Shown: one piece after another, positions 903 to 64,000 of the stretch
Position numbering within the stretch: position 1 is the first letter of the stretch
Layout: each line of letters starts with the position of its first letter
DNA from: a virus
Strand: one strand, 5' to 3'
DNA length: 64,000 bases
Virus record (IMG/VR): IMGVR_UViG_3300035181_001974
Program-made: the position numbers and the translations under genes
Notes under the pieces: model-generated
The model's input: the letters and a program-made list of their open reading frames with translations, nothing else
Told to the model about the DNA's origin: nothing
Databases searched by the model: none

Positions 903-924
903 CCAGTCACAGCAAGTAACCAAA

Positions 925-19862: not shown

Positions 19863-19909
19863 TGTCTAGTTTTCTCTCACAGGATCTGTCTTGACTTTGC
19901 GCTCAAAAT

Positions 19910-24156: not shown

Positions 24157-24161
24157 CTAAT

Positions 24162-44042: not shown

Positions 44043-44974
44043 CAGTATGTCATGCCTCCGAAAGCGATCGAGTCGGTGCCGACCGCCGCCGCAGTATCAT
44101 AATCCCAACCCGTCGCCTGTGACCTCTGTTTGCTCGACACGTAGTTGTCGGTCGAGCCTGACATCAGTGACAACGCGGCATCCATGTCGCTGCCGCGTGA
44201 AGAAGAGGCTACATTTCTCGGATAACGCTCATCCTTGAAGGGTTTGAGGTAGACCTTGTCGTAGCGGAAGAAGCCCGTCGAGACGCCCATGGTCCCAAGC
44301 ATGTCGACGTCATCCAGGTACTCGACGATGCGTGATTCGGGATCAAAGTCATCAATGCCGACGATCTGACATGAGGCCCGCGATTGATCCTCGCTGCCAC
44401 CCATGAAAGAACCCTTGATGCTGTGACTCTCGAAGGGAATGTCCATCGAGTAGAAAGCAGCAGGTGCGCGGATCGCCAATGGTTCAATGACACCGTTGGT
44501 GTTGAACGACTCGAGTTGGTCAGAGTCGCCAGTAACGATCGGGAACGTCAGAATTTCCTTGTCAAGGTACGAAATGTGTTCTTGTGCCTCCAGGAAGCGC
44601 ACTGGGTTGAACAGGTCGAGGTCCCCGTAACGTGGGTCCGGGAAGAAGTTCTTGTCTTCACCAAAGTTGTTCTTGCGAAGCACGTGCCCGGGCTCACCAG
44701 CGTGAATCTTGACGAGACCAGCGTCAAAGTGTTTCATCTGTGTCAGCTCAACGCCCTGACGGTAACCGTCGATTTGCGACGTATCGTGGCCCTGCTGCAC
44801 AGCAGTGGCGATCGTGTCAATCTTATTGACAATCATGCCGTTAATCAAAACTGATGCGCTGAAGTATGTGTACTCGTACTTGACGTTGGACTTAGCAGTG
44901 ACGAGAGGTCCCTCATCGAACCAATCGGGCTCCTGAAAGCCTGGATTTCGGAAGAAGTTCAGGTTGACGCCCAT
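44042..44974 (-). CDS. baseplate/tail structural protein
   Basis: 310-aa ORF with 1-nt and 3-nt junctions to neighbours. Confidence 0.45.
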   Translation of the reverse strand: MGVNLNFFRNPGFQEPDWFDEGPLVTAKSNVKYEYTYFSASVLINGMIVNKIDTIATAVQQGHDTSQIDGYRQGVELTQMKHFDAGLVKIHAGEPGHVLRKNNFGEDKNFFPDPRYGDLDLFNPVRFLEAQEHISYLDKEILTFPIVTGDSDQLESFNTNGVIEPLAIRAPAAFYSMDIPFESHSIKGSFMGGSEDQSRASCQIVGIDDFDPESRIVEYLDDVDMLGTMGVSTGFFRYDKVYLKPFKDERYPRNVASSSRGSDMDAALSLMSGSTDNYVSSKQRSQATGWDYDTAAAVGTDSIAFGGMTY

Positions 44975-44975
44975 T

Positions 44976-47900
44976 TTAGTATTTCCTTATGATGCCGGTC
45001 ACTTGCTGCACCAGCAACACGTCGCGGATGCGGCTGCGGTCTTCTTCGCCGAGATAAATCTCGGAGGAGAGGTGTTCCAACTTTGCACGCTCCAACATGT
45101 GCGACTCGATGGTGAAGTTGGTCCCCTTGAACCGCGTCTTGCGGGGAATCAATTGCTCGATGAAGGTTCCCAGCGTCTTGTCGAACCACCTGAAGAACTC
45201 GAAGAAGTCCTGAAAGTTCAGCCTACGGGTGATCCTGTTGAAGTATACGTTACGCAGGTGATCGAGGTTCGGGTAATCAGGTGAATACACCAGCTCCGGT
45301 GCGCCCAAAGCGTTGTCCAGTGCATCGAAGGTGGAAAACAGAGTGACGATGTCGCGGTTCAAGGCGTCGACCAGTGAAAACTCAATGCTCAGCCGCGTGT
45401 CGTCGGTCGGGCGCTCGCTCCTGACGATCTCGTGAACGGGTGCCACCGATGCCCAAGGAGTTGCGTCAACCAGGTCTTGATTCTGGTAGCCTCGAACGCG
45501 GATCTTCTCGTCTGTTGCTGCCTCGTCAAAGTAAGGCGACAGGTAGGAGTGATCAAAGATCTCGCCCACCACCGAATTGACGCCCGGTGGAAAACCAGAT
45601 CCTGTCAAGTGAAGGCCATTGAGCGAGAAGTCGATGAAGGTGATGCTGCCCGAGATTCCCATTGAGCTCGTCACCGCCGCGCGATCCACCTGTTTCTGCA
45701 GTGCATCAATGCGGACGCGGTTCCAGGAGCCCGTGCTCGTCTGGTTAAAGTTGTAGTTGACCAGCGGGTTCTCAACGCCCAGTGACTTGTAGTTTCGAGT
45801 GTGCTCACGGAACTCTGCGTCGGACACGGCCTTTGACCAGAATCGAAGGTTAGACGCACGACCAGTAAATGCCGTCGTCCGGGCCTCCTCAGGGACTGCT
45901 AGAATATCTGCCAAAAACAGACTGCTGGATACTGAAGCCTGGTTTTCGCCAATTGCTAGGTAGCTGCCAGACGGTGCCTCGAGCGTGATGGCTTGCCAGA
46001 CATTTGCTTCTCCAGCAGGATTCTCGAGGAAGAAGCTGCTGGTGCTGGCGAACCAAGTGACATCACCATCGTTCTGTGTGGCAACGCGGAGGAAGTAGCT
46101 CGAGGAAACGTTAGACTTCACCTCGTCGTTGCGGTAGCGACCGAACGAGATGTTCCAACGATCGTAATTGAAGATGCCGCCTGGTGGCAGATCGATCTCC
46201 ATGCGCAGCAGCGGTGACGTCGATGCATTGCCAGGACGTACGTAGAGCAGGACCTTGGGATCAAATGACGACGAGATTGCCAGCAGGTTGGCCACAAAGC
46301 TACCTGACGTGCCCGGAGCGTCACCGACCGCGAGGCGAGCCAACGACTGTGTCGCAGACGTCATCAGTGCAATGTTCTGAGGTGTGAACTTGAAAATGCC
46401 CTCAACGGTCCACGAGCCGCTCGTCAGCAGCCCATCGTTCTGATTCTGCGAAATGCCATGCGGCGGGTAGAGGTCCTGCTGAACCATCGAGCCCGCGGGT
46501 TTGGGAAATCCGACCTCAACACGTGATGCTGAAAGAAAGGGAGACGTTGCCAATGATGAGGTGACGAACTGCACCATGGCGCCAGAATCGAACTTGCGTT
46601 CACGGGAGAATGACAGTGGGCGTTCAGTGGGCCCGCCGTACTCGCGGATCCGCAGCGAGTTCTCGGGGTCGATGCCCATGGCGCGGAGGAATGACTTGAT
46701 CGCGTGCTGCGTGCCCTTTGACCTGACGACTTGGGGCATGTTGATCAACACGCGGCGCAGTAGCTCGTTCTGAACAACCTTCAACGGAAATGCGGAAGTC
46801 GCGATCTCGTAGCCTACGTTCTCGGCGTTGACGTATTGGTCAATCGTCGCACCGCCGAAGAGGGGAGGCAGGTGGAACCCGTATGCACGGACAAAGTCAT
46901 ACAAGAAGTTGTTGGGAGAGTTATCGTGACCCGTGTAGTCAAGGTAGCGCAGGGCGCTGAACGAATCGAGGTACAGCTTCATCTCATCGAAGAAGCGTGC
47001 CCAGATGTAAAGGAACGACAGGACGATCTGCTGCGACGAGGCCTTGCTTTGGCCCGGCATGCCCGTGCCCCCGTAGGGCGCCAGTGGTTCTGTCCAGTCG
47101 ACAGTTCCATCCTGTGCATCGCCCTCGAGGAGGTAATGCTGTGGAACCAGCCTGGTGATCAAATTTGGATTGTGCTTGTCGTATTCAGACGCAGACGCCA
47201 GAAGTTGGGTGTTTAGGTTGACTGTCGTTGGATAGGCCGGGAACAAGACGGGGTACGTCTCTGGCTTCTCATAGATCATCAAGCTCGCAGGATCCTGACT
47301 AGCGTCATGCCTCAACGTGGGCTCGAAATTTGTGATCAAAGCATGCAACGAGTTGCCGCTCGAATCTAGAACAATGGCATTGACCGGGTCGTTGGGATCA
47401 GGCGTCAGCGGAGGAGGTGGCTCATTGAAACGGTAGTAGAGCTTCAGGTCAGGCGTTGCGTAGATCGCCTTCTTGGCATAGAGCTCCTGTTGATTGACTG
47501 TCCGAGCCGAGTGAAAGACACGCAGCTCATCAAGAGAACCGCTGAACGTCGTCTTGGGAATGACGTCAGTGGCACCCAACGAGATCATGGTGCCCGTTCC
47601 GATCAGCACGTCAGAGGCGTCGATGTCGAGCTCTCCGATGTTACTGCTCATACGTGAGCGTTCCTGCAACACCTCATCGACGTAGAAGTCGACGAAGTCG
47701 GTGGTCGACTCGCGGTTCAACGTCACGCAGACGTGATTGAAGCAACCCTTGCGGAGGGTTGCAGCTGCTGTGACATAGCTGCTGCCAGAGACGACAGCAA
47801 ATCGTGCCACACATGAACCCGTCGAGATTGACTTCTCAAGGTACAGCGACAGGCCTTGCTGCGAACCCGACAACTTCTGAAAAATTGTCGAGACGCTATT

Positions 47901-48449
47901 TGTCTTAGGCGGCAGGAAAACGTTGAGCTCTAGGGTGAACGAGACGCCATCCTTGGGATTGATGACGCCTTCACCCGACTTTTTCTTGGAGATTTCTGGG
48001 TACAACGCGCCAGCGAAATCGTTGAGCTTGATCCAGCTGCCCAACGTTCCGTCGACGTCCTCTCCGTACTGCGTACCTGAGAACATCAACTGGCCCTTGA
48101 ACTTCGGAAACTGATCGAAGACCCACCTATCAAAGCCCGTCAGACGCTCAAAGAAGGCTTCGATCTCGGCCCGAGAACCGTCGAACGGGTAACCGTTGAT
48201 GACCTGGTCAAACGCTAGATTGACCTTTGCCTCGGCCGACGAGAAAAAGGTGTGATTCTCGAACTTCGACCAGTCGATGTTGAGCTGCTGCGTGTTCTTC
48301 AGCGGCGCATTCGTCGGATCATAGAGAAATGACGAGGTACTCTGTATGTTGGTATGCTTCACCTCGCTGAACGTCAACTGAACGGGTTTGTTGTCCTCGA
48401 GCGCTGACCTCAGGAAAGAGGGAATGTAGGGTGAAGCTGTGTTCGGCAT
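44976..48449 (-). CDS. large (1157 aa) baseplate/tail structural protein
   Basis: 3.5-kb ORF in structural operon. Confidence 0.5.
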   Translation of the reverse strand: MPNTASPYIPSFLRSALEDNKPVQLTFSEVKHTNIQSTSSFLYDPTNAPLKNTQQLNIDWSKFENHTFFSSAEAKVNLAFDQVINGYPFDGSRAEIEAFFERLTGFDRWVFDQFPKFKGQLMFSGTQYGEDVDGTLGSWIKLNDFAGALYPEISKKKSGEGVINPKDGVSFTLELNVFLPPKTNSVSTIFQKLSGSQQGLSLYLEKSISTGSCVARFAVVSGSSYVTAAATLRKGCFNHVCVTLNRESTTDFVDFYVDEVLQERSRMSSNIGELDIDASDVLIGTGTMISLGATDVIPKTTFSGSLDELRVFHSARTVNQQELYAKKAIYATPDLKLYYRFNEPPPPLTPDPNDPVNAIVLDSSGNSLHALITNFEPTLRHDASQDPASLMIYEKPETYPVLFPAYPTTVNLNTQLLASASEYDKHNPNLITRLVPQHYLLEGDAQDGTVDWTEPLAPYGGTGMPGQSKASSQQIVLSFLYIWARFFDEMKLYLDSFSALRYLDYTGHDNSPNNFLYDFVRAYGFHLPPLFGGATIDQYVNAENVGYEIATSAFPLKVVQNELLRRVLINMPQVVRSKGTQHAIKSFLRAMGIDPENSLRIREYGGPTERPLSFSRERKFDSGAMVQFVTSSLATSPFLSASRVEVGFPKPAGSMVQQDLYPPHGISQNQNDGLLTSGSWTVEGIFKFTPQNIALMTSATQSLARLAVGDAPGTSGSFVANLLAISSSFDPKVLLYVRPGNASTSPLLRMEIDLPPGGIFNYDRWNISFGRYRNDEVKSNVSSSYFLRVATQNDGDVTWFASTSSFFLENPAGEANVWQAITLEAPSGSYLAIGENQASVSSSLFLADILAVPEEARTTAFTGRASNLRFWSKAVSDAEFREHTRNYKSLGVENPLVNYNFNQTSTGSWNRVRIDALQKQVDRAAVTSSMGISGSITFIDFSLNGLHLTGSGFPPGVNSVVGEIFDHSYLSPYFDEAATDEKIRVRGYQNQDLVDATPWASVAPVHEIVRSERPTDDTRLSIEFSLVDALNRDIVTLFSTFDALDNALGAPELVYSPDYPNLDHLRNVYFNRITRRLNFQDFFEFFRWFDKTLGTFIEQLIPRKTRFKGTNFTIESHMLERAKLEHLSSEIYLGEEDRSRIRDVLLVQQVTGIIRKY

Positions 48450-48464
48450 GCTGGCGACTCGAAC

Positions 48465-49964
48465 TTACTGTACTGGGTTGACTTTGAAAACTCCGGACGC
48501 TGCTGGGTGCCGCTGCTGCGTGCCTCCCACGATGACCATGACGTCGACGACGTAGCTGCGCCCAGGGTCCAGATTGCTCATGTCCAGTGCGAAGTACATG
48601 CCAGAACCGTCGGACGACAACCGCGTCGATCCCTTTGAAGTATCGTACGGGATGACGACCCTGTCAGTTGCAACATCGCGAACTGAATAGAAGGCATCGG
48701 AGGCCACGCCCTGCAGACCACCAGGCGATTCGACTGGAATCTTGACCGCTGTGATGCGAGGAGAGGTGTAGTCGAACAGGTTGACGCGGCAGGCCACGAT
48801 CTCGTCTGCATCGTGCTCAGAGTTCAAACCGTTGACAGTGACGACAAAGTGTTTGGGTGCCAGGTTTCTCGAACCACGCGTAGGTGGATAGACTGTGATG
48901 GCAGATGATGCAGTCAAGAACGCCAGCGTGCCATCGAGTGAACCCCAGATCGGTGTCAAGTTGATGCTCGAGCCAGAGGCAACCATCGCCGCTGCGATTA
49001 CAGGATCTGATGATGGGATGAAGACGTTGACATCATACTCACCGACAACAGGATTTACGCCAGCACTGTGTTGGCTGCCCGTGAACACCAGCTCATAGAC
49101 GCCGCCCGAGACGGGCAGTTGCAGCTTCACGATCAGACAATTGGAGCCAGTGACCGGTGAGCTGCCTGACATCAGGTTGGCAGGCCTTCCCTTGTCATAG
49201 TTCCACATGAACAGGTTGCTGTTAGAATCCAACGTCAATCCCTCGGAATCATCGCGGATTGAGTCATCGAATCCTACAAGTAGCCGCGGCCGCTTCGAGT
49301 CGTCGTAGGCGTGCCGTGAAGCAAACCTCTTGACGAAGCGGGTGTATTCATCATTTTCTTCGGCTGCAGTGAATGCGATGCGGAATCCAGCATCTGGAAC
49401 TGTTCCCGACAGGATACCTTTGATGATAGGAGTGACGTCGACCAGCAGGTCCTCTTCGCCCGTGACGAATGACTGTGTGGCCTCGAGATCTGTGAAGTAG
49501 TCACAGGGTCCGGGCAGCGTACCAGAGGCTGTGCAACCAGCTCCCAACCATGGGTTACCGCGTGAGGCTGTCAAGAAGTTACATTCGTCGTAGTCACTGT
49601 AGTAGACCACGTCTTTGCCACGACCTTCATCAAACGACTGCGACAACGGTGTTACCGACAAGGTGAAGTTGTCGGGCGTCGGTTGGCCACCGTAAACGTC
49701 GAACAGGTGAAGTTTGGCCCAAAAGCTGCTGTCAGTTGGATCAATTGAACCTGCGGTGACGGCCTGTTTGAGGGCCGTCAGGTCGAAGTGAACCAGCAAC
49801 CTCGACAACTCTGTATTGGGAACGCTGCCTGACGAGGTCGCGCCATACAGCTTGAAGACATCGAGGGTGCCAGCGATGCCAGTGTTTGACCCGTAGGCCC
49901 GAACACCCTTGACCACGCGATCATTGATGTAGGCATCTTTGTCAGCGCGCAGTGACTTGAACAT
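48465..49964 (-). CDS. baseplate structural protein
   Basis: 499-aa ORF; ATGA-type overlap with the gp6-like gene. Confidence 0.45.
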   Translation of the reverse strand: MFKSLRADKDAYINDRVVKGVRAYGSNTGIAGTLDVFKLYGATSSGSVPNTELSRLLVHFDLTALKQAVTAGSIDPTDSSFWAKLHLFDVYGGQPTPDNFTLSVTPLSQSFDEGRGKDVVYYSDYDECNFLTASRGNPWLGAGCTASGTLPGPCDYFTDLEATQSFVTGEEDLLVDVTPIIKGILSGTVPDAGFRIAFTAAEENDEYTRFVKRFASRHAYDDSKRPRLLVGFDDSIRDDSEGLTLDSNSNLFMWNYDKGRPANLMSGSSPVTGSNCLIVKLQLPVSGGVYELVFTGSQHSAGVNPVVGEYDVNVFIPSSDPVIAAAMVASGSSINLTPIWGSLDGTLAFLTASSAITVYPPTRGSRNLAPKHFVVTVNGLNSEHDADEIVACRVNLFDYTSPRITAVKIPVESPGGLQGVASDAFYSVRDVATDRVVIPYDTSKGSTRLSSDGSGMYFALDMSNLDPGRSYVVDVMVIVGGTQQRHPAASGVFKVNPVQ

Positions 49965-51805
49965 CAGACCACCTTACCCAGAATGTCGACTTCGGGGTAA
50001 CGTACCTCGAAGATTCCGCCAGGAGGCGGCAAAATGATTCCCCTAACCGTGTTGCTGGCCACGTCAAAGGTGTCGTTGCTGTAAGTTCGGTTGTTGACGG
50101 TGCCCGTGATGCTGTTGAACTGCACGCGGTCGACCGCAACGATGCCAGAAACCGAGAAGATCGTGTTGACGATGTCAGAGACGATCAAAGGCTGATCGAT
50201 GTGGTAGTTCTTGATGTTGAACGTCGACTGCAACTTGGTCAGGACGTTTTGCAGCACCGTGCTCTTGTTCAAGGCAGGATCAACGACGACCTCAAAGTCC
50301 AACGTCAAGTTGATGATCCGAGCATCCAGGATGTCGATGGCGTCTGAGATCATCCTGTAGGGATTCAAATACTTCTGCAGGTTGGTCTTCAGAGTGTCAG
50401 GCGACGTGATTAGCTTCTGTTCTGGTGACCGCGAGACGATGAACAGCTGCGTGGCCAGTGGGTTGTTCGAATTCGACTTGACAGATGCGCGAAAGACGCG
50501 ACCGAAGTTGGATGGAATCGTGTAGACTCGAGCGACCAGATCCTCACGGGAAACGATGCGCTCTTGGCTGTTCCTGACCGACGGGATCAAGGCCTTCAGG
50601 TCGTCCGCCGAGGGCGCGTCCTCACCGCCAGATGCTTGGATCAGGTTGGCACACTCCATCGTGTTGCGGACCTGCGCCGCGATGGCAGCAGGCGGATTGC
50701 CGGGAAAAAAGAGGTTGGCGATCTTGATCGTCTTGATGCTACCTGCAGAGACGTTGTGATTCAGGCCGCCGCCGTAGCGATAGTCGACGGTCACTGTCGT
50801 GTTGACAGCAGCCACGCCCAGAGTTTTGGTCTGCAGCAACTGCTGCGGATTGACTGAAATCCGCGAGAAGGTGCGAGAGTACGGAAACGAGATCGCAAAC
50901 TCTGAGGGATCGGGAATGACGTCGTCTTCTAGACTGTCAGCGCTGCCGCCGCCGAACGTTAGCACTGTGCGCCGTGTTGCCAAATCGACGTCAGAGGTGT
51001 ACCTGTAAGGCGCCGGAATGACCTTGATCGATTCTGGTACGATGTCATTGTCACTGGCGGTGTTCAGGACGTTGCGGTAAACGACATCGTGGCTCAGGGC
51101 CGAGACCTGGTAGTAGATGTTGCCCAGCGTGTCTGTGACGTTGATAATGTCAGTGACGTTAGCGTTGCTCAACGTCAACTGCCTAAACGGGACAAACGCT
51201 TGACTGATCGGAAAGGCGTCCTGTCCAACCTTGCCTGAAACGCAGAGGCCTGTTTGGGCCATGATGAAAGTTCGAGGCACGCCGGCCGGAGACTTGTTTC
51301 CCACTTTGACGGTGGCCTTGAGTGATCCATCGGCGCGTCGCGCGCCGAAGTCGATGTCCTCGAGGAGGATGAACTCAGTTCCGTTATCAGCGGTGAAGAT
51401 CGTGTTCATCTGCATCACCGGGATGCAGTCGGGCCGCGGGCCGATTGAGTTGCCGATGGCGGCAGCCGGAACCTGGATATAGACTGTGACAGGAACCAAC
51501 GCGGGTGCTGCTCCAGTGATCGGGACGCCTGCTGTTCTGAGGTGACGCTGAATGTTGTTTGTCTCGACTGCAGTCTCGGGATTCAGTTCCGAGTACTGGT
51601 GATCGAGGTAGAACGACATGTTGTCGCCCACGTAGGCCGCCATGTCAAGGAACAAGCCACCCAGTGACGCCTCTGAAAAGTCACGCAACCTGTCAGGGTA
51701 GTACAACCGAGCGTACTCCAACAGCTGCGCGCGCAGACTGTCAAAGTCTTTGCCCAAATACTTCCGTTGCCTGACAGGCACGATGTCGTCACGCTTTAGC
51801 GCCAT
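49964..51805 (-). CDS. baseplate wedge protein, gp6 / Baseplate_J-like
   Basis: 613 aa, lies immediately upstream of the gp25-like gene as in T4-like and Mu-like baseplate modules. Confidence 0.5.
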   Translation of the reverse strand: MALKRDDIVPVRQRKYLGKDFDSLRAQLLEYARLYYPDRLRDFSEASLGGLFLDMAAYVGDNMSFYLDHQYSELNPETAVETNNIQRHLRTAGVPITGAAPALVPVTVYIQVPAAAIGNSIGPRPDCIPVMQMNTIFTADNGTEFILLEDIDFGARRADGSLKATVKVGNKSPAGVPRTFIMAQTGLCVSGKVGQDAFPISQAFVPFRQLTLSNANVTDIINVTDTLGNIYYQVSALSHDVVYRNVLNTASDNDIVPESIKVIPAPYRYTSDVDLATRRTVLTFGGGSADSLEDDVIPDPSEFAISFPYSRTFSRISVNPQQLLQTKTLGVAAVNTTVTVDYRYGGGLNHNVSAGSIKTIKIANLFFPGNPPAAIAAQVRNTMECANLIQASGGEDAPSADDLKALIPSVRNSQERIVSREDLVARVYTIPSNFGRVFRASVKSNSNNPLATQLFIVSRSPEQKLITSPDTLKTNLQKYLNPYRMISDAIDILDARIINLTLDFEVVVDPALNKSTVLQNVLTKLQSTFNIKNYHIDQPLIVSDIVNTIFSVSGIVAVDRVQFNSITGTVNNRTYSNDTFDVASNTVRGIILPPPGGIFEVRYPEVDILGKVV

Positions 51806-55050: not shown

Positions 55051-55863
55051 TCAGAACAGGCGAAACTTAGCGTCGCCCTTCAACTTGCGATAGTGCTTCT
55101 TGACCATCTGCATCGTCGTTGTCAACTGCTTAGGACTCAGGCCCGACAGTTCACGCATGTAGAGCAGGATGGCACTCTTGCTCAACAAGTCAACATCATC
55201 AACGTTTTCGAAGATGGTGATGATGGAGTTGATGCACGCCAGCTCATTCTCTGTCTTGACGCGGGTCCTGATTTCGTACAACATCTTCAGGACGCCAGCT
55301 GCGCTGGTCTCATTCTCCATGATCATCTCAGCAGACGGGACCATGTTGTGCTCTTCGACGATGTTGAACTCATGAGCATTCAGCGAGTTGGGATCGTCCA
55401 GCGACACCGAACGCTTGACGCGCTGTGCCTTCTGCTTTGTCCTGATGATCAACCAGTTCTTGGCGACCACGTTGAAGTACGAAAAAGCGTTGGTCCCTCG
55501 CGTGCCGTCGAACTTGTGAATCGTCTCAAAGAGGAAGTTGACGCAGTCGTTCTTCAAATCATCGTAGGTGTCGTGCAGGCTGGTGAACTTGTGAATGTTG
55601 ATCAGGTTCTCTGTCAACTTCTCAAACGCTGGCATGATTTCATTGACGTAGAGCCTCTCGCGTTCCTTCCTGTCAGTTTCCTTCTGGTAGGCGCAGATCG
55701 CGGCCTGCGTATTTTGATTGAAGTACATCCTCGACTGCTTCGCAGCCTTCTTCTGTTCCTCCGTCTTGGGCTCTTCCTTCTCAGGGGGAGAAGATGGGAC
55801 GATTGCGGCGAGTGCTGCCTTCTTTGCGGGTGATTTCTGGGTCGTCTTTTTGCGGGCGGCCAT
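55051..55863 (-). CDS. gp55-like late-transcription sigma factor
   Basis: segment DCVNFLFETIHKFDGTRGTNAFSYFNVVAKNWLIIRTKQKAQR parallels T4 gp55 [39 protein letters not shown]; basic N-terminal extension. Confidence 0.55.
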   Translation of the reverse strand: MAARKKTTQKSPAKKAALAAIVPSSPPEKEEPKTEEQKKAAKQSRMYFNQNTQAAICAYQKETDRKERERLYVNEIMPAFEKLTENLINIHKFTSLHDTYDDLKNDCVNFLFETIHKFDGTRGTNAFSYFNVVAKNWLIIRTKQKAQRVKRSVSLDDPNSLNAHEFNIVEEHNMVPSAEMIMENETSAAGVLKMLYEIRTRVKTENELACINSIITIFENVDDVDLLSKSAILLYMRELSGLSPKQLTTTMQMVKKHYRKLKGDAKFRLF

Positions 55864-56172
55864 CTATTTGTTGCCTTCCTCGTCGTCCTGAATCGGCTCG
55901 ACAATCAAGTTTGCAACAAGCAGTATGGCGTCACGGGACATTTTGATGTCCTGCACGAGCTCACGGACGACGGGTTCGTCGCTCATGACCTCGAGCTCTG
56001 CCCGTGCGGCCGCTCGTTGATAGCACGTGTTCAACACGTCAAGCGCTACCTCTGTCTGATCGACGATTTCCTGCATCTTGTCTTGGTACTCGAGGTTCCT
56101 CTTTACGCTAACGTAGATGAAGAACGCAAGTGTCAGACAGAGCAGCGACAGTATGACAATCGTCGTAATCAT
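55864..56172 (-). CDS. small membrane protein (ends TAG, abuts gp55-like ATG)
   Basis: N-terminal TM helix ITTIVILSLLCLTLAFFIYV. Confidence 0.4.
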   Translation of the reverse strand: MITTIVILSLLCLTLAFFIYVSVKRNLEYQDKMQEIVDQTEVALDVLNTCYQRAAARAELEVMSDEPVVRELVQDIKMSRDAILLVANLIVEPIQDDEEGNK

Positions 56173-58620: not shown

Positions 58621-59322
58621 TTAACCTTTGAAACACGTTCTGCTTGTCAGAATAGTACTCACTCTCTCACACTGTGATCGTGTAGCAACCTTTTGTTGCA
58701 TCACGCTCATTCGTTCTGCGTCTTCAGCCCAAATCTGTTCTGCGTACTTCTTCTTCAGTGGATGGTAGAAGGAACCGCTGTACTTGATAGGATTGCAGTG
58801 CCAGTAGTCGCCGTTGTACTCAACGACCATCTTGGCTTTGTCGCTGAAGATGTCGATGCAGTACTTGTGTGTGCCTCCATGGAACAGTTTCTCACCTTCA
58901 AACTGTGCTGCAGGTATGCTGCTGGATAGGTGATCGATGATTTCCTGCTGGGCTTTTGAAACCGTACGGTGCTTGCTCAGAAAGAATGCGTTGGTTACGC
59001 CGTGGTTCTGCAACAATGTTCGTCTAGACTTGTCGAGGACTTCTTCACTGTTTTTGCGACCGAACATAGGATTGCCAGAACCCATGAACTTGCGTCCAAA
59101 ATACGTTCTACCACACTGTCGACACGTCCGCTCGACCTTATGAGACTCGATGTTCTTGGCGCCGTACTCCTTGCGGTGCTCAGAGAAACACATCGGGCCG
59201 CAAAACCGCTTGCTGGCGACTGCGGCCTCAAAGGGTCGTTGACAACGCTCACATGTTCGGATGAACATCCAGACCAGATGTATCTGGTCCATTGAATCTG
59301 TAAAGCGTAGCAATACAGGCAC
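58621..59322 (-). CDS. zinc-ribbon + DUF559 / Vsr-like (PD-(D/E)xK) endonuclease
   Basis: N-terminal CERCQ..C..C and CRQCGR ribbons; C-terminal YCIDIFSDKAKMVVEYNGDYWH matches the DUF559 D..EvDG..H core. Confidence 0.5.
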   Translation of the reverse strand: MPVLLRFTDSMDQIHLVWMFIRTCERCQRPFEAAVASKRFCGPMCFSEHRKEYGAKNIESHKVERTCRQCGRTYFGRKFMGSGNPMFGRKNSEEVLDKSRRTLLQNHGVTNAFFLSKHRTVSKAQQEIIDHLSSSIPAAQFEGEKLFHGGTHKYCIDIFSDKAKMVVEYNGDYWHCNPIKYSGSFYHPLKKKYAEQIWAEDAERMSVMQQKVATRSQCERVSTILTSRTCFKG

Positions 59323-60417: not shown

Positions 60418-60898
60418 TCCAACAATGTATCAACGTTTCTGCGCGAAGTTCATCGAGCCACCAACCCAGTGAATGAAGTACTCCTGCTCTGTCTCGTGAT
60501 ACATCGGTCCACAGGGCACCATGCGCCATGTACCGCCATAGCGATGATACTCATGACACAGATGATAACGTTGAAGCGGTTCTTCTGGCTCATCGCGCCG
60601 GAGTCGAAACTATTCAGCGAGCCTCTCTAGACCAGAGTTGTTGTAGAAGGCTGGATCACTCACGGAGCTCAAGCATTTGCTCGAGGCTACAACGCTTGCC
60701 GCAGTGATCACAGATAAAGGCAGTTTCCATGACGCTCCCGAAGGGACTTGAACCCTCAACGCATGGTGTTAGAATCCGTCACTCTGCCATTGAGTTACAG
60801 GAGCAGTGCCCCGAGTGGGAGTCGAACCCACGATCGCGGTTTTAGAGACCGCAGCTTTAGCCCGCTAAGCTACCGAGGCAAACCTCAAAATTGTACGG

Positions 60899-61507
60899 TC
60901 AGTAGCAGCACTTGTTTCTCCGTCTCGGCTCGGACCAGGTCACGCAGCGTCTGGGGGTGATTGAGATAGGTGCGGGCGTCAGAGTCATCATGACGTCGAA
61001 CAACGGAAAGTACTTCTCGCGGGTCTCTGCGACCTGCTTGACACGGAACTCCTTAGAGGCTGCCCCCAACGTCCTGAGATTGTCGAGCCGATCACGTGCC
61101 TTGATGAACGGACGCCAGTCGGTCGACATGTTGAAGCACTCAAAATAACCTTCCTCGGGCACCTTGTTCAAAGTCTTGATGATCTCGATGACATCGGTGC
61201 CGAAGCAGCGCTCGATCAACACGGGCGGCAGGTTGGGAGCGTCTTCCGCCACGTCATGGAGCAACGCAGAGATTATCATCTCTGACTTGACGATCTTGGC
61301 CTTGTCGATCAGGACGATGGCCACTTGGCGCACGTGCTCGAAGTACCTGACGGGATCACCGTGGTCGTCCAATTCCTTTCGAACCTACGCGCGGTTGCCA
61401 TACTTTGCCATCGTGTAGGCATGCTGCACGTTGAGGATGACGCTCGGGGCTAGGAACGAATCCAAATGCCTGAAGAAACTTTCGCGATTTCCGTTGCCAT
61501 GATTCAT
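60899..61507 (-). CDS. RelA/SpoT-type HD hydrolase (small alarmone hydrolase-like) interrupted by an in-frame TAG at 61385-61387
   Basis: HD motif ISALLHDVAEDAP and upstream YFEHVRQVAIVL; ATG 61505-61507 ORF hits TAG between ..AKYGNRA and VRKELDDHG.., aligning with the conserved Gln of the H.GQ.RK motif. Confidence 0.5.
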
Positions 61508-61548
61508 GGCAAGCAAAACGGGCGGTGAATTTCACCGCCCGCCCTTGC

Positions 61549-61905
61549 TCAACCGATTCGTTCTCCCCAGGGAACTCCCATACACGTGGCAAGTGTAACT
61601 GTGCCCGTCACCGGGTCATGTCCTGCTAGAAGCATTCCGTGTGATTCAACGCCCATCATCTTGCGAGGCGCAAGGTTGACCACGGCCAACACCCGAGTGC
61701 CGACCAACATCTCCACGTGGTAGCTCTTAGCGATGCCGGCCATAATGGTGCGATAGCCGATCTCGGATCCAAAGTAGACCTCGAGCTTGACAAGTTTGTC
61801 GCTCTTGGGCACTGCCTCTGACTTAGTGATTTCGCCCACACGAATATCGACCTTCAAGAAGTCATCGAAGGTGATTGTGTCGGGCGCCTTGTGTTCGTCG
61901 CTCAT
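61549..61905 (-). CDS. tRNA-binding domain protein (Trbp111 / CsaA / EMAP-II-like)
   Basis: FLKVDIRVGEITKSE...KLVKLEVYFG...VGTRVLAVVNLAPRKMMGVESHGMLL classic OB-fold tRNA-binding signature. Confidence 0.7.
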   Translation of the reverse strand: MSDEHKAPDTITFDDFLKVDIRVGEITKSEAVPKSDKLVKLEVYFGSEIGYRTIMAGIAKSYHVEMLVGTRVLAVVNLAPRKMMGVESHGMLLAGHDPVTGTVTLATCMGVPWGERIG

Positions 61906-62261
61906 GACAGTTCCTTGAGCGCCAGTGGCAGGTTCTTACAGAGCTCTGCCGTCTTGGGATGTGGCTCGATGGCGATCGCCGTGATGGCGCCTCCCACGTT
62001 AGGTTCACGGAAAGCACTCCAACGCAGGCCATGGTCCTTGGCAGCGGTGATAAGACGCATCAGCTCTACCTCATCGGCCACTGACAGCAACGCGAGGTAG
62101 TTAGAGTTGGTAAACCACTCACCATCGCGATCAGGATGATCAGCCGTGAACTGTCGAATGGCATGGCAAGACTGCACGGCCTGGTAACCAGGCGCAATGT
62201 CTCGCCGCGTGACGAGGTACAATTTATCCCCCGTCTTAACCTTGTGGTTTCCACCACTCAT
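61902..62261 (-). CDS. second PTH2-fold (peptidyl-tRNA hydrolase 2-like) protein
   Basis: KLYLVTRRDIAPGYQAVQSCHA and NVGGAITAIAIEPH parallel PTH2 motifs; start at internal Met MSGGNHKV directly after the upstream stop. Confidence 0.45.
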   Translation of the reverse strand: MSGGNHKVKTGDKLYLVTRRDIAPGYQAVQSCHAIRQFTADHPDRDGEWFTNSNYLALLSVADEVELMRLITAAKDHGLRWSAFREPNVGGAITAIAIEPHPKTAELCKNLPLALKELS

Positions 62262-62644
62262 TTTTCGAGCCTTTTTTCCGTGGGCTCGAGAAGGGCCTGC
62301 ACCGCCTCCACCGTGAGCTTTTTTGCCTCCCAAGGAGGCATGTGGGCGAGCATCAGCTCGTGAATCCTTGCGGGACTGGGTCGATTTACGTTTGAGCAAT
62401 GTTCAATCCTCTCATACGGGATGCCGCGAAGCAAACCGTAAGCAATCAGGTGCTCCCTGTTGAAGGTTCCAATCCTTCGCTTTTCCTGCCACAGCGAATC
62501 ACGTCGCTTGCCGCTCGTCTTGCGGATACGATTGTGGATCGAAACGCCGGTGGCCTGCAGACCGCGGATCTTGGCGCGAAGTACGCGCAAATAGATGTTC
62601 TTCATGATGTCCTCTCTTTTCTTTCTGAAAGTGCACTCAATCAC
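62258..62644 (-). CDS. hypothetical basic protein
   Basis: 128-aa ORF. Confidence 0.35.
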   Translation of the reverse strand: MIECTFRKKREDIMKNIYLRVLRAKIRGLQATGVSIHNRIRKTSGKRRDSLWQEKRRIGTFNREHLIAYGLLRGIPYERIEHCSNVNRPSPARIHELMLAHMPPWEAKKLTVEAVQALLEPTEKRLEK

Positions 62645-62879: not shown

Positions 62880-63359
62880 CTACTTGAGGTTGTCGTGGAC
62901 CCAAGCCACAAATGTCTTGTTCGACAAGGCATACTGACGGCGCCGTTTGATCGTCTCGACGCAGACGTGGCCATTCCAACCTGTCAACTCATGAAGGGCC
63001 ATCGCGGTCACAATCCCGCTGCGATTGTACCCTGACATGCATGTGACTAGGACCTTCTTGCCTGACCTGACGTGGCTGGCTACCTCTCGGGCGGCCGCCT
63101 GCCATGTCGGCAAGAAGTTCATAAGTCGATGTGGACGTTCATCGTCATCGCCCGGTGCGAGGATGACATGAAGACCCGGGTACCATGAGGCGTCCTGGTG
63201 ATCACTTGCTGCGAGCACCACGACATCAAAACCCTTATCACGCAGCAGGCTGCCTGCCGGCGGAATGGCACCCTGCCAAAGGGTACCGTGGATGTTGTTG
63301 ATGTCCAATACGTTCATGATGTCATCGTAATCCGGATCGTCGTCCATGTCAACCCTCAC
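62880..63359 (-). CDS. dual-specificity / tyrosine-type protein phosphatase (CX5R)
   Basis: VLVTCMSGYNRSGIVTAMA active-site loop; ATGA overlap with NAMPT gene. Confidence 0.65.
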   Translation of the reverse strand: MRVDMDDDPDYDDIMNVLDINNIHGTLWQGAIPPAGSLLRDKGFDVVVLAASDHQDASWYPGLHVILAPGDDDERPHRLMNFLPTWQAAAREVASHVRSGKKVLVTCMSGYNRSGIVTAMALHELTGWNGHVCVETIKRRRQYALSNKTFVAWVHDNLK

Positions 63360-64000
63360 AGGGCTGCGCGGGCTCGCACCTCATCGAGGGTGTATTCTTT
63401 CAGGACCTCACCGTCCAGGAACACCGTCTCCATGATTGAGTACGGCAGCTTCTCTTTGCCAACTGGGACTCGGCCCGTGGTGAATCGCCCCTCAAAGACC
63501 TCGAGGTCCAGACGCCCCTTCTTCGAGCGCTTGCCCGAGTCGGTCACTGGTTCCTTGAAGACGTCGATCTCAAGGCCGTCTGCCACAATATGACTACACT
63601 TCATGGCGAACTTCTGCGTATCGCGGTTGTGTTGCTGCAACAACGCGCCTCCCATGCCGAAGGCGATGTTGGTCGCCGAGAAGCCGGCCTTCACCGCCGC
63701 GTCCAGGATCGCATAGATGCTGTCACGGTTGATTCCGTCACCTTGGATGACGCGAACGTTGTTCAGGACCTTGTAGCCCTTCGAGTTGACAGTTGAACCG
63801 AACTTGGACTCCAAGAGTCGCAGACAGTTGAGCACCACGGTTGGCGGGTGACCCGAATCCGGACGTACCACCACGATGGCGCCCGAATCCTTGACCTCCT
63901 GACGCAGGGTCTCGCCCCAGATGTGCTCACAGGCATTGTAGATGTCGTACGAGTCGCTGACCACCGCGACCAGTGCTCCAGGCTTAGCGAAGTTCCGTAG
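63356..64000 (-). CDS. nicotinamide phosphoribosyltransferase (NAMPT), C-terminal part; gene continues beyond the window
   Basis: VRPDSG, VIQGDGI, FGMGGALLQ motifs typical of NAMPT. Confidence 0.8.
   Translation of the reverse strand, partial: LRNFAKPGALVAVVSDSYDIYNACEHIWGETLRQEVKDSGAIVVVRPDSGHPPTVVLNCLRLLESKFGSTVNSKGYKVLNNVRVIQGDGINRDSIYAILDAAVKAGFSATNIAFGMGGALLQQHNRDTQKFAMKCSHIVADGLEIDVFKEPVTDSGKRSKKGRLDLEVFEGRFTTGRVPVGKEKLPYSIMETVFLDGEVLKEYTLDEVRARAAL

What the first reader, a model, noticed from the sequence alone, without database searches (positions are those of the whole stretch)
60899..62261. SAH-type (p)ppGpp/alarmone hydrolase + Trbp111 tRNA-binding protein + PTH2-like protein in a row: candidate tRNA 3'-end detoxification module
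Three adjacent minus-strand genes: a RelA/SpoT-family HD hydrolase, a stand-alone tRNA-binding OB domain (Trbp111/CsaA-like) and a PTH2-fold protein. Toxic small alarmone synthetases (toxSAS such as CapRel/FaRel2-type defence toxins) pyrophosphorylate tRNA 3'-CCA ends, and small alarmone hydrolases reverse this. A phage carrying an SAH next to a tRNA-binding module and a tRNA-ester hydrolase would be a plausible anti-toxSAS counter-defence. I do not recognise this combination from described systems.
Basis: inference. Interest (0 to 1): 0.75.

Follow-up and report, generated by a model that had tools for sequence, protein, structure and literature searches.

The report
Damaged alarmone hydrolase beside suppressor-tRNA cassette
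Three tRNA-related genes of an uncultured giant phage are real, but the alarmone hydrolase among them is broken, and the part that recurs across phages is a peptidyl-tRNA-hydrolase-like gene paired with stop-codon-reading tRNAs, a link I did not find described.

Summary
All three domain calls hold: HD_4 RelA/SpoT-type hydrolase, stand-alone Trbp111-like tRNA-binding protein, PTH2-fold protein.

1. The hydrolase ORF it gave (60899-61372) is a fragment of a ~205-codon gene (60885-61507). That gene carries an in-frame TAG where 37 of 37 homologues have Gln, a 1-nt deletion near its 3' end, and six further changes at invariant residues. It has also lost translational coupling behind a strong hairpin.
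2. Two tRNAs with anticodon CUA (amber suppressors) start 6 nt after the gene's ancestral stop codon.

The trio is adjacent only in one collinear clade of huge phages (13 of 17 distinct loci). About ten further collinear loci lack both the hydrolase and the tRNA-binding gene. In the sister clade the hydrolase lies 55-70 kb from the PTH2-like gene, though again among tRNA genes (canonical PTH2, Thg1, PheRS-like).

The widely conserved pair is PTH2-like plus a stop-codon-reading tRNA, seen in 59 of 66 loci. In about 33 loci with a CUA tRNA, the PTH2-like ORF itself has TAG as codon 2-5.

Best reading: a suppressor-tRNA and tRNA-maintenance cassette with a decaying, or at most suppression-dependent, hydrolase. 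The anti-toxSAS idea stays plausible for intact relatives. It is untested, and for phage alarmone hydrolases it is already published.

The parts
61902..62261 (-). PTH2-like gene (119 aa). Its start overlaps the stop of the upstream 128-aa gene (ATGA), and its stop overlaps the start of the tRNA-binding gene (ATGA).
   Evidence: Pfam PTH2 32 bits. NCBIfam Pth2 models only 24 bits, far below cut-off. Model pLDDT 93 matches only Pth2 structures. 72-89% identical to homologues and normal at invariant sites, 1 deviation in 31. Overlaps read from the sequence.
61549..61905 (-). Stand-alone Trbp111/CsaA-like tRNA-binding OB-fold protein (118 aa).
   Evidence: Pfam tRNA_bind 79 bits. PDB 1pyb Trbp111 E 7.7e-21. 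NCBIfam metG C-terminal and tRNA-binding protein models.
61508..61554 (-). Strong hairpin followed by a U-run, between the tRNA-binding gene's stop and the hydrolase start. It is terminator-like and leaves no Shine-Dalgarno sequence.
   Evidence: RNA fold -31.7 kcal/mol, z -5.5, 0 of 200 shuffles as stable. Not flagged by the consensus terminator scan. In relatives the hydrolase start abuts or overlaps the upstream gene.
60885..61507 (-). SAH-type RelA/SpoT HD hydrolase gene, disrupted. Codons 1-40 are followed by TAG. The C-terminal 30 codons are readable only in the -1 frame and end at TGA 60885-60887.
   Evidence: Three-frame translation. Homologues of 204-206 aa cover 92-97% of the reconstruction. 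PDB hits to Rel/SpoT hydrolase domains and Mesh1. 7 of 45 invariant and 14 of 83 nearly invariant positions changed, against homologue means of 0.5 and 2.8.
61385..61387 (-). In-frame amber codon (TAG) at the position of an invariant Gln (GHRAQVRK motif).
   Evidence: Q38 invariant in 37 homologues. Alignments from 36 other loci span the codon.
60968..60976 (-). Site of a 1-nt deletion (between 60973 and 60972) that shifts the last ~30 codons. There is no slippery heptamer.
   Evidence: DNA alignment with five relatives shows a single 1-nt gap only in the window. Protein alignment of the -1 frame peptide.
60806..60879 (-). tRNA with anticodon CUA (amber-suppressor type), regular cloverleaf, starting 6 nt after the hydrolase's ancestral stop codon.
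   Evidence: ARAGORN. Rfam tRNA 60.4 bits.
60731..60805 (-). Second tRNA with anticodon CUA. Two mismatches in the anticodon stem. A close counterpart exists in L019.
   Evidence: ARAGORN. Rfam tRNA 48.8 bits with two non-canonical pairs marked. Sequence comparison.
62258..62644 (-). Conserved 128-aa gene of unknown function, translationally coupled to the PTH2-like gene. It is part of the conserved core together with PTH2-like, the tRNA(s) and the PD-(D/E)XK nuclease gene.
   Evidence: No Pfam, PHROG or PADLOC hit. Present next to PTH2-like in all collinear loci.

Best explanation
The locus belongs to the translation-takeover gene set of an uncultured huge phage. The window holds 46 tRNAs, and related contigs reach 300-480 kb.

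Its evolutionarily stable core is a phage-specific PTH2-like hydrolase that travels with one or two stop-codon-reading tRNAs. In one sub-lineage a Trbp111-like tRNA-binding gene and an SAH-type HD hydrolase gene were added between them.

In this genome the 128-aa gene, PTH2-like and Trbp111-like form one translationally coupled operon. The SAH gene behind it is decaying. It is cut off by a strong hairpin. It carries TAG in place of an invariant Gln, has lost one base near its 3' end, and has changed six other invariant residues. At most it yields a little C-terminally altered enzyme through read-through by the two amber-suppressor tRNAs that follow it.

Shown:
- gene identities and folds;
- the lesions in the hydrolase gene;
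- the tRNAs;
- the conservation patterns across loci.

Inferred:
- PTH2-like hydrolyses acyl- or peptidyl-tRNA esters, so that tRNAs (especially the suppressors) are recycled.
- Trbp111-like chaperones the phage tRNAs.
- The intact SAH of relatives removes 3'-pyrophosphate from alarmones or from tRNA CCA ends, which keeps translation running against the stringent response or toxSAS.
- The presence of an amber suppressor is what allowed the CAG-to-TAG change to persist.
For: Identity of the three proteins.

Lesions in the hydrolase gene:
- In-frame TAG at an invariant Gln, and the frameshift.
- Identical sequence in at least four samples.
- Excess of changes at invariant sites in the hydrolase (7 of 45, against a maximum of 4 and a mean of 0.5 in 37 homologues) but not in PTH2-like (1 of 31).
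- Hairpin of -31.7 kcal/mol and loss of the start/stop overlap seen in relatives.

Suppressor tRNAs: two tRNA(CUA) confirmed.

Conservation patterns:
- Trio adjacent in 13 of 17 distinct clade-A loci, in variable order.
- About ten collinear loci have 128-aa gene, PTH2-like, tRNA and PD-(D/E)XK without the hydrolase or tRNA_bind.
- In clade B the hydrolase and PTH2-like lie 55-70 kb apart on the same contigs.
- PTH2-like with a CUA, UUA or UUCAA-loop tRNA within 3.5 kb in 59 of 66 dereplicated loci, with CUA the nearest tRNA in 35 of 64. In 27 control loci, 0 have a CUA tRNA (Fisher 7.7e-8, not corrected for phylogeny).
- The same pairing in LR756500 and LR756501, and in mycobacteriophages Cane17 and Myrna.

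In-frame TAG events:
- Early in-frame TAG in PTH2-like co-varies with a CUA tRNA.
- Among more than 50 hydrolase-centred loci, only two in-frame TAG events are cleanly supported by homologues: the window hydrolase and the L009 PTH2-like gene. Both lie beside CUA tRNA pairs.

The hydrolase recurs in tRNA-gene islands: canonical PTH2 in 17 of 30 loci, Thg1 in 16 of 30, PheRS-like in 14 of 30, and in the XacN1 terminal repeat.

Literature: PMC7229694, 10.1101/2021.04.30.441581 and 10.1101/2021.08.26.457843.
Against: - No enzymatic activity, expression or suppression was measured.
- All window-type contigs are one genotype, so the age of the lesions is unknown, and a recent laboratory-irrelevant variant cannot be excluded.
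- The catalytic motifs of the hydrolase are still intact, and only two frame-breaking lesions exist. It may therefore still work when TAG is read as Gln, if the C-terminal helix is dispensable.
- The PTH2-like family lacks the canonical Lys (GK motif) and the DAGxT motif. Its substrate may not be peptidyl-tRNA.
- Association statistics are inflated by shared ancestry and collinearity of many loci.
- XacN1 keeps its PTH gene away from its CUA tRNAs.
- The window's own PTH2-like gene has no early TAG.
- The phage also encodes an RF1-like factor, which should oppose amber suppression.
Confidence: 0.55

Rival explanations
1. One reading: SAH, Trbp111-like and PTH2-like work together in this phage as a counter-defence that repairs tRNA 3' ends. 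The SAH removes the pyrophosphate added by toxSAS (CapRel or FaRel2 type). PTH2-like removes acyl groups. Trbp111-like recruits the tRNA.
For: - SAHs neutralise all tested toxSAS, including two phage SAHs.
- The SAHs MESH1 and ATfaRel restore aminoacylation of FaRel2-modified tRNA.
- The trio is adjacent in 13 of 17 clade-A loci despite reshuffled order.
- The hydrolase and tRNA_bind genes are mostly gained or lost together.
- The hydrolase sits with a non-orthologous canonical PTH2 in clade B.
- A NARP2-like NAD+ salvage pair, a known counter-defence, lies 1-3 kb away.
Against: - Here the SAH gene has an amber codon, a frameshift, six further changes at invariant residues and no translational coupling.
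- The trio is absent from about ten collinear relatives and is split by 55-70 kb in clade B.
- The PTH2-like gene's universal partner is a suppressor tRNA.
- No toxSAS or other defence-related hit for any neighbour.
- No activity data.
Confidence: 0.13
2. The SAH is functional and deliberately gated. Its amber codon makes synthesis depend on the two suppressor tRNAs transcribed just downstream, so it would be timed or dosed expression as proposed for recoded late genes. The altered C-terminus is tolerated.
For: - TAG sits exactly at an invariant Gln, the amino acid that phage amber recoding inserts.
- The suppressors are the next genes.
- A parallel in-frame TAG occurs in the L009 PTH2-like gene beside a CUA pair.
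- An early TAG is conserved in many PTH2-like genes with an SD-spaced upstream ATG.
- Catalytic motifs are intact.
Against: - The frameshift removes about 30 residues that include nearly invariant R and D.
- Excess substitutions at invariant sites.
- Hairpin and no SD before the start.
- None of 40+ homologous hydrolase genes carries a TAG at this or any other position.
- The rest of the window uses standard code, and TAG is a true stop, for example for the DSPc gene.
- An RF1-like factor is encoded.
Confidence: 0.2
3. There is no functional link. Translation-related genes of huge phages simply cluster for co-expression or by drift, and the adjacency of the three genes and the tRNAs is historical accident within one collinear lineage.
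For: - The whole region (NAMPT, DSPc, 128-aa gene, PTH2-like, tRNA(s), PD-(D/E)XK, glycosyltransferases) is collinear in clade A, so conservation of neighbours is expected from ancestry.
- The trio is not conserved beyond that clade.
Against: - The PTH2-like/suppressor-tRNA pairing recurs in otherwise non-collinear contexts and in distant phages.
- It co-varies with an amber codon in the gene.
- The hydrolase is found among tRNA genes in three different arrangements.
Confidence: 0.12

Closest known systems
Stand-alone phage small alarmone hydrolases (Salmonella phage PVP-SE1 PbcSpo, SSU5 PaSpo) and the SAH antitoxin ATfaRel
   Same: Single-domain RelA/SpoT HD hydrolase of about 200 aa encoded by a phage. 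H / HD / ED / DxxDN motifs present. Published role: neutralising toxSAS by hydrolysing (pp)pApp, with ATfaRel and MESH1 also shown to restore aminoacylation of 3'-pyrophosphorylated tRNA.
   Different: Only about 30% identical to any deposited phage SAH. Subfamily not assigned. Here the gene is interrupted by TAG and a frameshift. It lies next to tRNA-handling genes and suppressor tRNAs rather than alone. No toxSAS partner.
'Code-change module' of recoded phages (suppressor tRNA + aminoacyl-tRNA synthetase + release factor; Borges et al., bioRxiv 10.1101/2021.08.26.457843)
   Same: Suppressor tRNA genes clustered with protein genes that act on translation. In-frame stop codons appear in genes of phages that carry the suppressor. 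TAG at a Gln position.
   Different: The partners here are a PTH2-like hydrolase, a Trbp111-like protein and an SAH, not a synthetase and a release factor. The genome is otherwise standard code. The release factor is RF1-like and lies 32 kb away.
Translation gene sets of jumbo phages XacN1 and Atu_ph07
   Same: Dozens of tRNAs, CUA or UCA suppressor tRNAs, peptidyl-tRNA hydrolase genes. XacN1 also has an SAH-type HD gene (ORF077, annotated GTP pyrophosphokinase) in its tRNA-rich terminal repeat.
   Different: No DNA or structural-protein similarity to the window. The XacN1 authors found no gene targeted by the suppressors, whereas candidates are seen here. In XacN1 no PTH2-like gene lies in the 50 kb that hold the suppressor tRNAs.
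Archaeal/eukaryotic peptidyl-tRNA hydrolase 2 (Pth2; e.g. MJ0051 2zv3, human Bit1 1q7s)
   Same: Same fold (TM 0.70-0.78), same length, conserved Q..HA helix.
   Different: GK Lys replaced by Tyr. DAGxT replaced by FREPD/N. Scores far below the NCBIfam equivalog cut-offs, whereas the window's other PTH2 (31829-32335) scores 87-98 bits and passes the TIGR00283 cut-off of 82. Genomically tied to suppressor tRNAs.
Trbp111 (Aquifex aeolicus) / CsaA / YgjH / MetRS C-terminal domain
   Same: Stand-alone ~115-aa OB-fold tRNA-binding domain, about 45% similar over 89 residues.
   Different: Phage-encoded, which is rare: only a few credible stand-alone hits among 50,697 phage records. Function in infection unknown.

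Membership tests
Small alarmone hydrolase (single-domain RelA/SpoT homologue, Pfam HD_4) | HD_4 domain above Pfam gathering score; only domain in a ~180-210 aa protein | tested here: met
   37 bits against cut-off 27.2 even for the fragment. Homologues are 204-206 aa with HD_4 only. PDB matches to Rel/SpoT hydrolase domains and Mesh1.
Small alarmone hydrolase (single-domain RelA/SpoT homologue, Pfam HD_4) | Catalytic motifs: His (..YFEH..), HD, ED, D-R-L-x-N | tested here: met
   FEHV, LLHDVAED and RDRLDNLRT read directly and aligned to T. thermophilus Rel.
Small alarmone hydrolase (single-domain RelA/SpoT homologue, Pfam HD_4) | Uninterrupted reading frame under purifying selection | tested here: not met
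   In-frame TAG, 1-nt deletion, 7 of 45 invariant positions changed.
Small alarmone hydrolase (single-domain RelA/SpoT homologue, Pfam HD_4) | Mn2+-dependent hydrolysis of (p)ppGpp/(pp)pApp or of 3'-pyrophosphorylated tRNA | not testable with these tools
   Needs enzyme assays.
Anti-toxSAS SAH (type IV antitoxin / phage counter-defence) | Adjacent toxSAS gene, or demonstrated neutralisation of toxSAS | tested here: not met
   No RelA_SpoT synthetase domain in any neighbour, in the window or in relatives. No PADLOC hit. Neutralisation itself is not testable.
Trbp111/CsaA stand-alone tRNA-binding protein (Pfam tRNA_bind) | tRNA_bind OB domain as the whole protein (~110 aa), not fused to a synthetase | tested here: met
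   79 bits; 118 aa; own start and stop.
Trbp111/CsaA stand-alone tRNA-binding protein (Pfam tRNA_bind) | Dimer that binds the outer corner of the tRNA L shape | not testable with these tools
   Not modelled. Would need binding assays.
Peptidyl-tRNA hydrolase 2 (PTH2) | PTH2 fold and Pfam PF01981 above gathering score | tested here: met
   32 bits against 23. Model pLDDT 93. The top 14 PDB matches are all Pth2.
Peptidyl-tRNA hydrolase 2 (PTH2) | Canonical active-site motifs (GK..AQ..HA Lys; DAGxT Asp/Thr) and equivalog-level score | tested here: not met
   GYQAVQ..HA and FREPD/N instead. 24 bits against cut-offs of 82 and 126.
Peptidyl-tRNA hydrolase 2 (PTH2) | Hydrolysis of the peptidyl-tRNA ester bond | not testable with these tools
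   Needs assays.
Phage stop-codon recoding / code-change module | Suppressor tRNA encoded by the phage | tested here: met
   Two tRNA(CUA) plus one tRNA(UUA).
Phage stop-codon recoding / code-change module | Many genes (typically late or lysis genes) with in-frame reassigned stops; coding density rises under the alternative code | tested here: not met
   Long ORFs are intact under standard code. The hydrolase gene is the only convincing in-frame TAG in 64 kb. TAG ends real genes.
Phage stop-codon recoding / code-change module | Cognate synthetase and a release factor that spares the reassigned codon, next to the tRNA | tested here: not met
   No synthetase nearby. The release factor is RF1-like, which reads UAG, and lies at 28.5-29.2 kb.

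The most novel reading that the evidence does not exclude
The phage-specific PTH2-like protein and the amber-suppressor tRNA form a dedicated, self-gated unit. The gene carries an amber codon at position 2-5 in many lineages, so it is made only when the suppressor works. In the window's lineage, a Trbp111-like tRNA chaperone and an SAH extend this unit into a tRNA acceptor-end maintenance system, which keeps phage tRNAs usable under host attack on tRNA 3' ends (toxSAS pyrophosphorylation, GNAT acylation) or under stringent control. The window's amber codon in the SAH would then be a second suppressor-gated gene rather than decay.
Probability: 0.15. Interest if true: 0.8.

Novelty: new variant of a known kind. 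Interest (0 to 1): 0.55.

Why it matters
Suppressor tRNAs are common in standard-code jumbo phages, yet their targets are unknown. The XacN1 authors state that they could not identify any (PMC5852040).

This locus and its relatives give concrete, testable candidates:
- an alarmone-hydrolase gene with TAG at an invariant Gln, directly upstream of two amber suppressors;
- more generally, a PTH2-like gene family that lies next to suppressor tRNAs in most lineages and often begins Met-x-TAG.

If the coupling is functional, it adds a tRNA-recycling enzyme to the known code-change toolkit of suppressor tRNA, synthetase and release factor. It also gives a handle on how phages run partial stop-codon suppression in a standard-code host.

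For the anti-toxSAS idea, the comparative data show where to test it: in relatives with an intact hydrolase. They also show that the hydrolase is repeatedly placed among tRNA-maintenance genes.

Tried and rejected
- DNA search of the 2-kb region against 50,697 phage records found nothing. tblastn of two large structural proteins also found nothing, so no cultured relative can be named.
- PADLOC gave no hit for any of eight proteins.
- The consensus terminator scan did not report the hairpin upstream of the hydrolase. It was shown by folding instead.
- Genome-wide TAG recoding was considered and rejected. Coding density and long ORFs are fine under standard code, TAG ends real genes, and the read-through extensions of 15 TAG-terminated ORFs are short or implausible.
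- A programmed -1 frameshift in the hydrolase gene was considered and rejected, because there is no slippery heptamer at the shift site.
- Assembly error was rejected, because the sequence is 100% identical in four samples.
- The first read-through homology screens were swamped by antisense ORF similarity and one script result was lost. The screen became usable only after restricting subjects to greedy gene calls.
- Assigning the amino-acid identity of the two CUA tRNAs by similarity to the phage's other tRNAs was inconclusive: best match 75% to tRNA-Val.
- Whether the 8-nt-loop tRNAs of relatives read UGA (anticodon UCA) or GAA (anticodon UUC) could not be settled. Infernal prefers UUC with an insertion, while the canonical Y32/U33/R37 rules favour UCA.
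- The L009 TAG aligns to a variable column, so it says nothing about the amino acid inserted.
- For mycobacteriophages Cane17 and Myrna, the 'ATG/GTG TAG GTG' arrangement is better explained by a start at the GTG after the TAG, judging by SD spacing. They are not counted as early-TAG cases.
- A link between the DSPc phosphatase and the published NARP1-associated phosphatase was checked and rejected. That enzyme is a Macro-domain protein.
Full report
**1. What is at the coordinates**

- The 157-aa ORF 60899-61372 matches Pfam HD_4, the RelA/SpoT hydrolase domain, at 37 bits against a cut-off of 27.2.
- The 118-aa ORF 61549-61905 matches tRNA_bind at 79 bits.
- The ORF ending at 61902 matches PTH2 at 32 bits against a cut-off of 23. 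Gene callers start it at ATG 62261, giving 119 aa.

Further checks agree.

- The tRNA-binding protein matches Aquifex Trbp111 (1pyb) at E 7.7e-21. It has its own start and stop codons.
- The PTH2-like protein was modelled at pLDDT 93. Its top 14 PDB matches are all Pth2 structures, with TM 0.70-0.78.
- At sequence level this PTH2-like protein is divergent. It has GYQAVQ..HA in place of GK..AQ..HA, and FREPD/N in place of DAGxT. Against the NCBIfam Pth2 equivalogs it scores only 24 bits.
- The window contains a second, canonical PTH2 at 31829-32335, inside the tRNA array. It scores 87-98 bits on the NCBIfam Pth2 models and passes the TIGR00283 cut-off of 82.

**2. The hydrolase gene is broken**

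Translating upstream of the 157-aa ORF in the same frame gives ...LNVQHAYTMAKYGNRA*VRKELDDHGDPVRYFEHV.... This is a 40-codon N-terminal piece that starts at ATG 61507 and ends in TAG at 61385-61387.

A search with the reconstructed protein found 550 homologues. The best are 204-206 aa long, 65-71% identical, and cover 92-97% of the reconstruction.

- In the alignments the TAG falls on a Gln (GHRAQVRK) that is invariant in 37 of 37 diverse homologues.
- The last ~30 residues of the homologues (..YxxRVQxLRDxIRxETERQA..) align with the -1 frame of the window, not with the ORF's own C-terminus (..YLNHPQTLRDLVRAETEKQVLLLTVQF*, stop at 60885-60887).
- A DNA alignment with five relatives shows exactly one 1-nt gap, in the window only, at about 60972/60973. 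There is no slippery heptamer there.
- The window protein differs at 7 of 45 positions that are invariant in 37 homologues, and at 14 of 83 positions that are at least 90% conserved. Leave-one-out values for the homologues are mean 0.5 (maximum 4) and mean 2.8 (maximum 10).
- By the same measure the window's PTH2-like protein is normal, with 1 deviation in 31.
- In relatives the hydrolase start abuts or overlaps the stop of the gene before it.
- In the window a 41-nt spacer holds a hairpin of -31.7 kcal/mol (z -5.5) followed by a U-run, with no Shine-Dalgarno sequence.
- By contrast, the 128-aa gene, PTH2-like and Trbp111-like are joined by ATGA overlaps.
- The sequence is 100% identical on contigs from at least four samples, so the lesions are real. 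All of these contigs are one genotype.

The catalytic motifs (FEH, HD, ED, DRLDN) are still present.

**3. Two amber-suppressor tRNAs follow**

Six nucleotides after the ancestral stop codon lie two tRNAs with anticodon CUA: 60806-60879 and 60731-60805.

- They score 60.4 and 48.8 bits against Rfam tRNA. The second has two mismatches in its anticodon stem.
- They sit apart from the window's 44 other tRNAs, which lie at 0.1-3.6 kb and 23.6-34.2 kb.
- The window is otherwise standard code. Long ORFs are intact, TAG ends real genes such as the DSPc gene, and no other in-frame TAG is convincing.

**4. Relatives**

Hydrolase homologues were found on 42 IMG/VR viral contigs and on several ENA and Logan contigs of 200-480 kb. 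They fall into two clades.

*Clade A.* These hydrolases are at least ~60% identical. The loci are collinear: NAMPT, DSPc, 128-aa gene, PTH2-like, (tRNA_bind), hydrolase, tRNA(s), PD-(D/E)XK, two glycosyltransferases.

- PTH2-like lies upstream of the hydrolase in all 16 distinct untruncated loci.
- tRNA_bind is present in 12 of them. With the window that makes 13 of 17.
- The order varies. L005, for example, has PTH2-like, DUF3307, hydrolase, tRNA_bind.

*Clade B.* These hydrolases are ~50-57% identical, and there is no PTH2-like or tRNA_bind gene within 6 kb.

- On five contigs the PTH2-like gene lies 55-70 kb from the hydrolase.
- The clade B hydrolase instead sits in another tRNA island. 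It has a canonical PTH2 0.2-4.8 kb upstream in 17 of 30 loci, Thg1 in 16 of 30, and a monomeric PheRS-like gene directly upstream in 14 of 30.

Searching from the PTH2-like side gave 80 loci. About ten distinct collinear loci have the 128-aa gene, PTH2-like, tRNA and PD-(D/E)XK, with neither the hydrolase nor tRNA_bind. The hydrolase and tRNA_bind genes therefore look like an insertion into an older core.

In the cultured jumbo phage XacN1, an SAH-type HD gene (ORF077, annotated GTP pyrophosphokinase) lies in the tRNA-rich terminal repeat, 6.8 kb from two CUA tRNAs.

**5. The conserved pair is PTH2-like plus a stop-codon-reading tRNA**

- In 66 dereplicated PTH2-like loci, 36 have a tRNA(CUA) within 3.5 kb.
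- 59 have a CUA tRNA, a UUA tRNA, or an unusual tRNA with the loop N-Y-U-U-C-A-A-N.
- The nearest tRNA is CUA in 35 of 64 loci.
- None of 27 hydrolase-only control loci has a CUA tRNA (Fisher 7.7e-8, not corrected for phylogeny).
- The pairing also appears in deposited huge-phage genomes LR756500 and LR756501. It also appears in mycobacteriophages Cane17 (CUA tRNA 250 nt downstream) and Myrna.
- Every clade-A locus has one or two tRNAs in this slot. Most have an 8-membered loop with invariant UUCAA. Read by the usual Y32/U33/R37 rules this is anticodon UCA (opal). Infernal prefers UUC with an insertion. This stays unresolved.
- Atu_ph07 is reported to carry a UCA suppressor and two PTH genes. 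[quoted passage not shown]

**6. Amber codons in the genes beside the suppressors**

A screen looked for in-frame stops spanned by alignments to genes of other loci. Over more than 50 hydrolase-centred loci it found only two clean TAG events. One is the window hydrolase, supported by 36 loci. The other is the PTH2-like gene of L009, supported by 20 loci. Both lie beside CUA tRNA pairs.

Outside clade A, most PTH2-like genes begin Met-x(0-3)-TAG-Ile/Val.

- Examples: L061 MA*IKEGDKLY, L062 MCL*IKEGDKLY, L119 MK*INNHKLII.
- This is in register with clade A's MATIKMGDKLY.
- Where the host type uses a Shine-Dalgarno sequence, it lies 6-9 nt before the upstream ATG.
- The codon after TAG is often not a possible start codon (GTT, GTA, GAA, AGA).
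- Early TAG and a CUA tRNA within 4 kb co-occur in about 33 loci. About 5 loci have TAG only, about 6 have CUA only, and about 23 have neither. The script's stricter count was 29/4/11/24, p 2e-6.
- The window's own PTH2-like gene has no TAG.
- Cane17 and Myrna are better read as starting at the GTG after the TAG, and are not counted.

I found no paper in the held library that links PTH genes to suppressor tRNAs.

**7. How it most likely works**

*Shown:* the identities, the lesions, the tRNAs and the conservation patterns.

*Inferred:*

- The core unit supplies a stop-codon-reading tRNA together with an ester hydrolase of the PTH2 fold. The hydrolase would recycle tRNAs trapped as peptidyl- or acyl-tRNA. 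Suppression and read-through should raise that load.
- The Trbp111-like protein would chaperone structurally odd phage tRNAs.
- The SAH of intact relatives would hydrolyse (p)ppGpp or (pp)pApp, or the 3'-pyrophosphate on tRNA. This keeps translation going against the stringent response or toxSAS. Two phage SAHs neutralise toxSAS in vivo, and MESH1 and ATfaRel restore charging of pyrophosphorylated tRNA.
- In this genome the SAH is decaying. The suppressor next door makes a CAG-to-TAG change tolerable, which fits the route proposed by Borges et al..

I give this reading 0.55. The rivals are:

- a deliberately suppressor-gated but functional SAH: 0.20;
- no functional link: 0.12.

**8. Comparison and novelty**

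Each component belongs to a known kind.

- The SAH membership test passes for domain and motifs, and fails for an intact frame.
- Trbp111 membership is met.
- PTH2 membership is met for fold and Pfam score, but not for the canonical active-site motifs.
- The locus is not a code-change module as defined. It has no synthetase, the release factor is RF1-like and distant, and recoding is not genome-wide.

Three things appear new. The first is the combination of components. The second is the near-universal PTH2-like/suppressor-tRNA pairing with a co-varying early amber codon. The third is a concrete candidate target gene for amber suppressors in a standard-code huge phage. The anti-toxSAS role of phage SAHs is already published.

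**9. Caveats**

- Nothing here measures activity or expression.
- Many loci are related, so counts overstate independence.
- Gene starts in metagenomic loci are inferred.
- The window lineage is a single genotype.

Noticed in passing
window 28482-29151 (+): Phage-encoded class-I release factor lacking domain 1. It is RF1-like (NCBIfam prfA 190 bits against prfB 119; RVPPTEKRGR = PxT motif; GGQ present). The N-terminal 37 codons are in another frame, and the junction AGG GGT CTT TGA GGC resembles the prfB +1 programmed frameshift site (CUU UGA with an SD-like run upstream). An RF1-type factor in a phage that carries amber suppressors is unexpected.
   Followed up: partly
L061-L140 (e.g. L061:3780-3800, L062:5990-6010, L119, L121, L132): Most PTH2-like genes outside the window's clade begin ATG-x(0-3)-TAG-ATT/GTT..., in register with MATIK of the window's clade. 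This co-varies with a tRNA(CUA) within 4 kb, so PTH2-like looks like a conserved target of the suppressor.
   Followed up: partly
L005:6998-7148, L007:6622-6785, L013, L014, L017, L020, L024, L048, L049 and others: The tRNA slot downstream of the cluster in relatives holds tRNAs with an 8-membered anticodon loop N-Y-U-U-C-A-A-N (Rfam 44-52 bits). ARAGORN calls them ttca, ttc or tc. They may be UCA opal suppressors with an extra 5' loop base, or Glu tRNAs with an extra 3' base.
   Followed up: partly
window 31829-32335 (+): A second, canonical PTH2 gene (Pfam 101.6 bits; NCBIfam Pth2 models 87-98 bits, passing the TIGR00283 cut-off of 82) inside the main tRNA array. The phage therefore has two PTH2-family genes.
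   Followed up: yes
window 830-905 (+) and 24062-24157 (+): A tRNA with anticodon UUA (ochre-suppressor type) and a tRNA-like gene with a 4-base anticodon call (gttc), among 46 tRNAs in 64 kb.
   Followed up: no
window 63356-64000 (-) and beyond (L001:6099-8550): NAMPT (cut by the window end) and a NadM-type NMN adenylyltransferase-Nudix gene lie 1-3 kb from the trio. This is the NARP2-type NAD+ reconstitution pair described as a phage counter-defence. A DSPc phosphatase (62880-63359) sits between them and the trio.
   Followed up: partly
L027-L053 (clade B hydrolase loci), e.g. L033:2700-6630: In the sister clade the SAH gene lies in a conserved island: canonical PTH2, Thg1, monomeric PheRS-like (tRNA-synt_2d + FDX-ACB), SAH, HslV-like, NAD-dependent DNA ligase.
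   Followed up: yes
L033:3023-4183 (+): The Thg1 gene has an in-frame TGA aligned with Trp of its homologues (FQKGINxNDCP against FQKGFNWDKCP), supported by 14 loci. It could be opal read-through or a nonsense mutation.
   Followed up: no
L009:1171-1560 (-) and L059:7990-8372 (+), L128: PTH2-like genes with internal in-frame TAG. L009 has one, convergent with a CUA tRNA pair. LR756501 (735 kb) and L128 have two each, which suggests TAG-recoded genomes.
   Followed up: partly
L141 (XacN1 AP018399):28637-29275 and 36047-36205: ORF077, annotated 'GTP pyrophosphokinase', is an SAH-type HD-only protein. It lies in the tRNA-rich terminal repeat, 6.8 kb upstream of the two CUA suppressor tRNAs.
   Followed up: partly
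window 55051-56172 (-): A 102-aa gene ends in TAG and is immediately followed, in the same frame, by the ATG of a 270-aa gene, so amber read-through would fuse them. In relatives the two genes are in different frames, so this is probably chance.
   Followed up: partly
window 58621-59322 (-): An ORF with weak homing-endonuclease similarity (phrog_3339) between the PD-(D/E)XK nuclease and the glycosyltransferase genes. The content of this slot varies among relatives.
   Followed up: no
window 17073-22105, 39774-51805 (-): Very large structural-region proteins (929, 731, 1422, 1157, 499 aa) have no PHROG hit, and the 929-aa and 499-aa proteins tested have no tblastn match among 50,697 phage records. 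Only a baseplate-wedge and a gp25-like hit mark the region as a myovirus-type tail module.
   Followed up: partly
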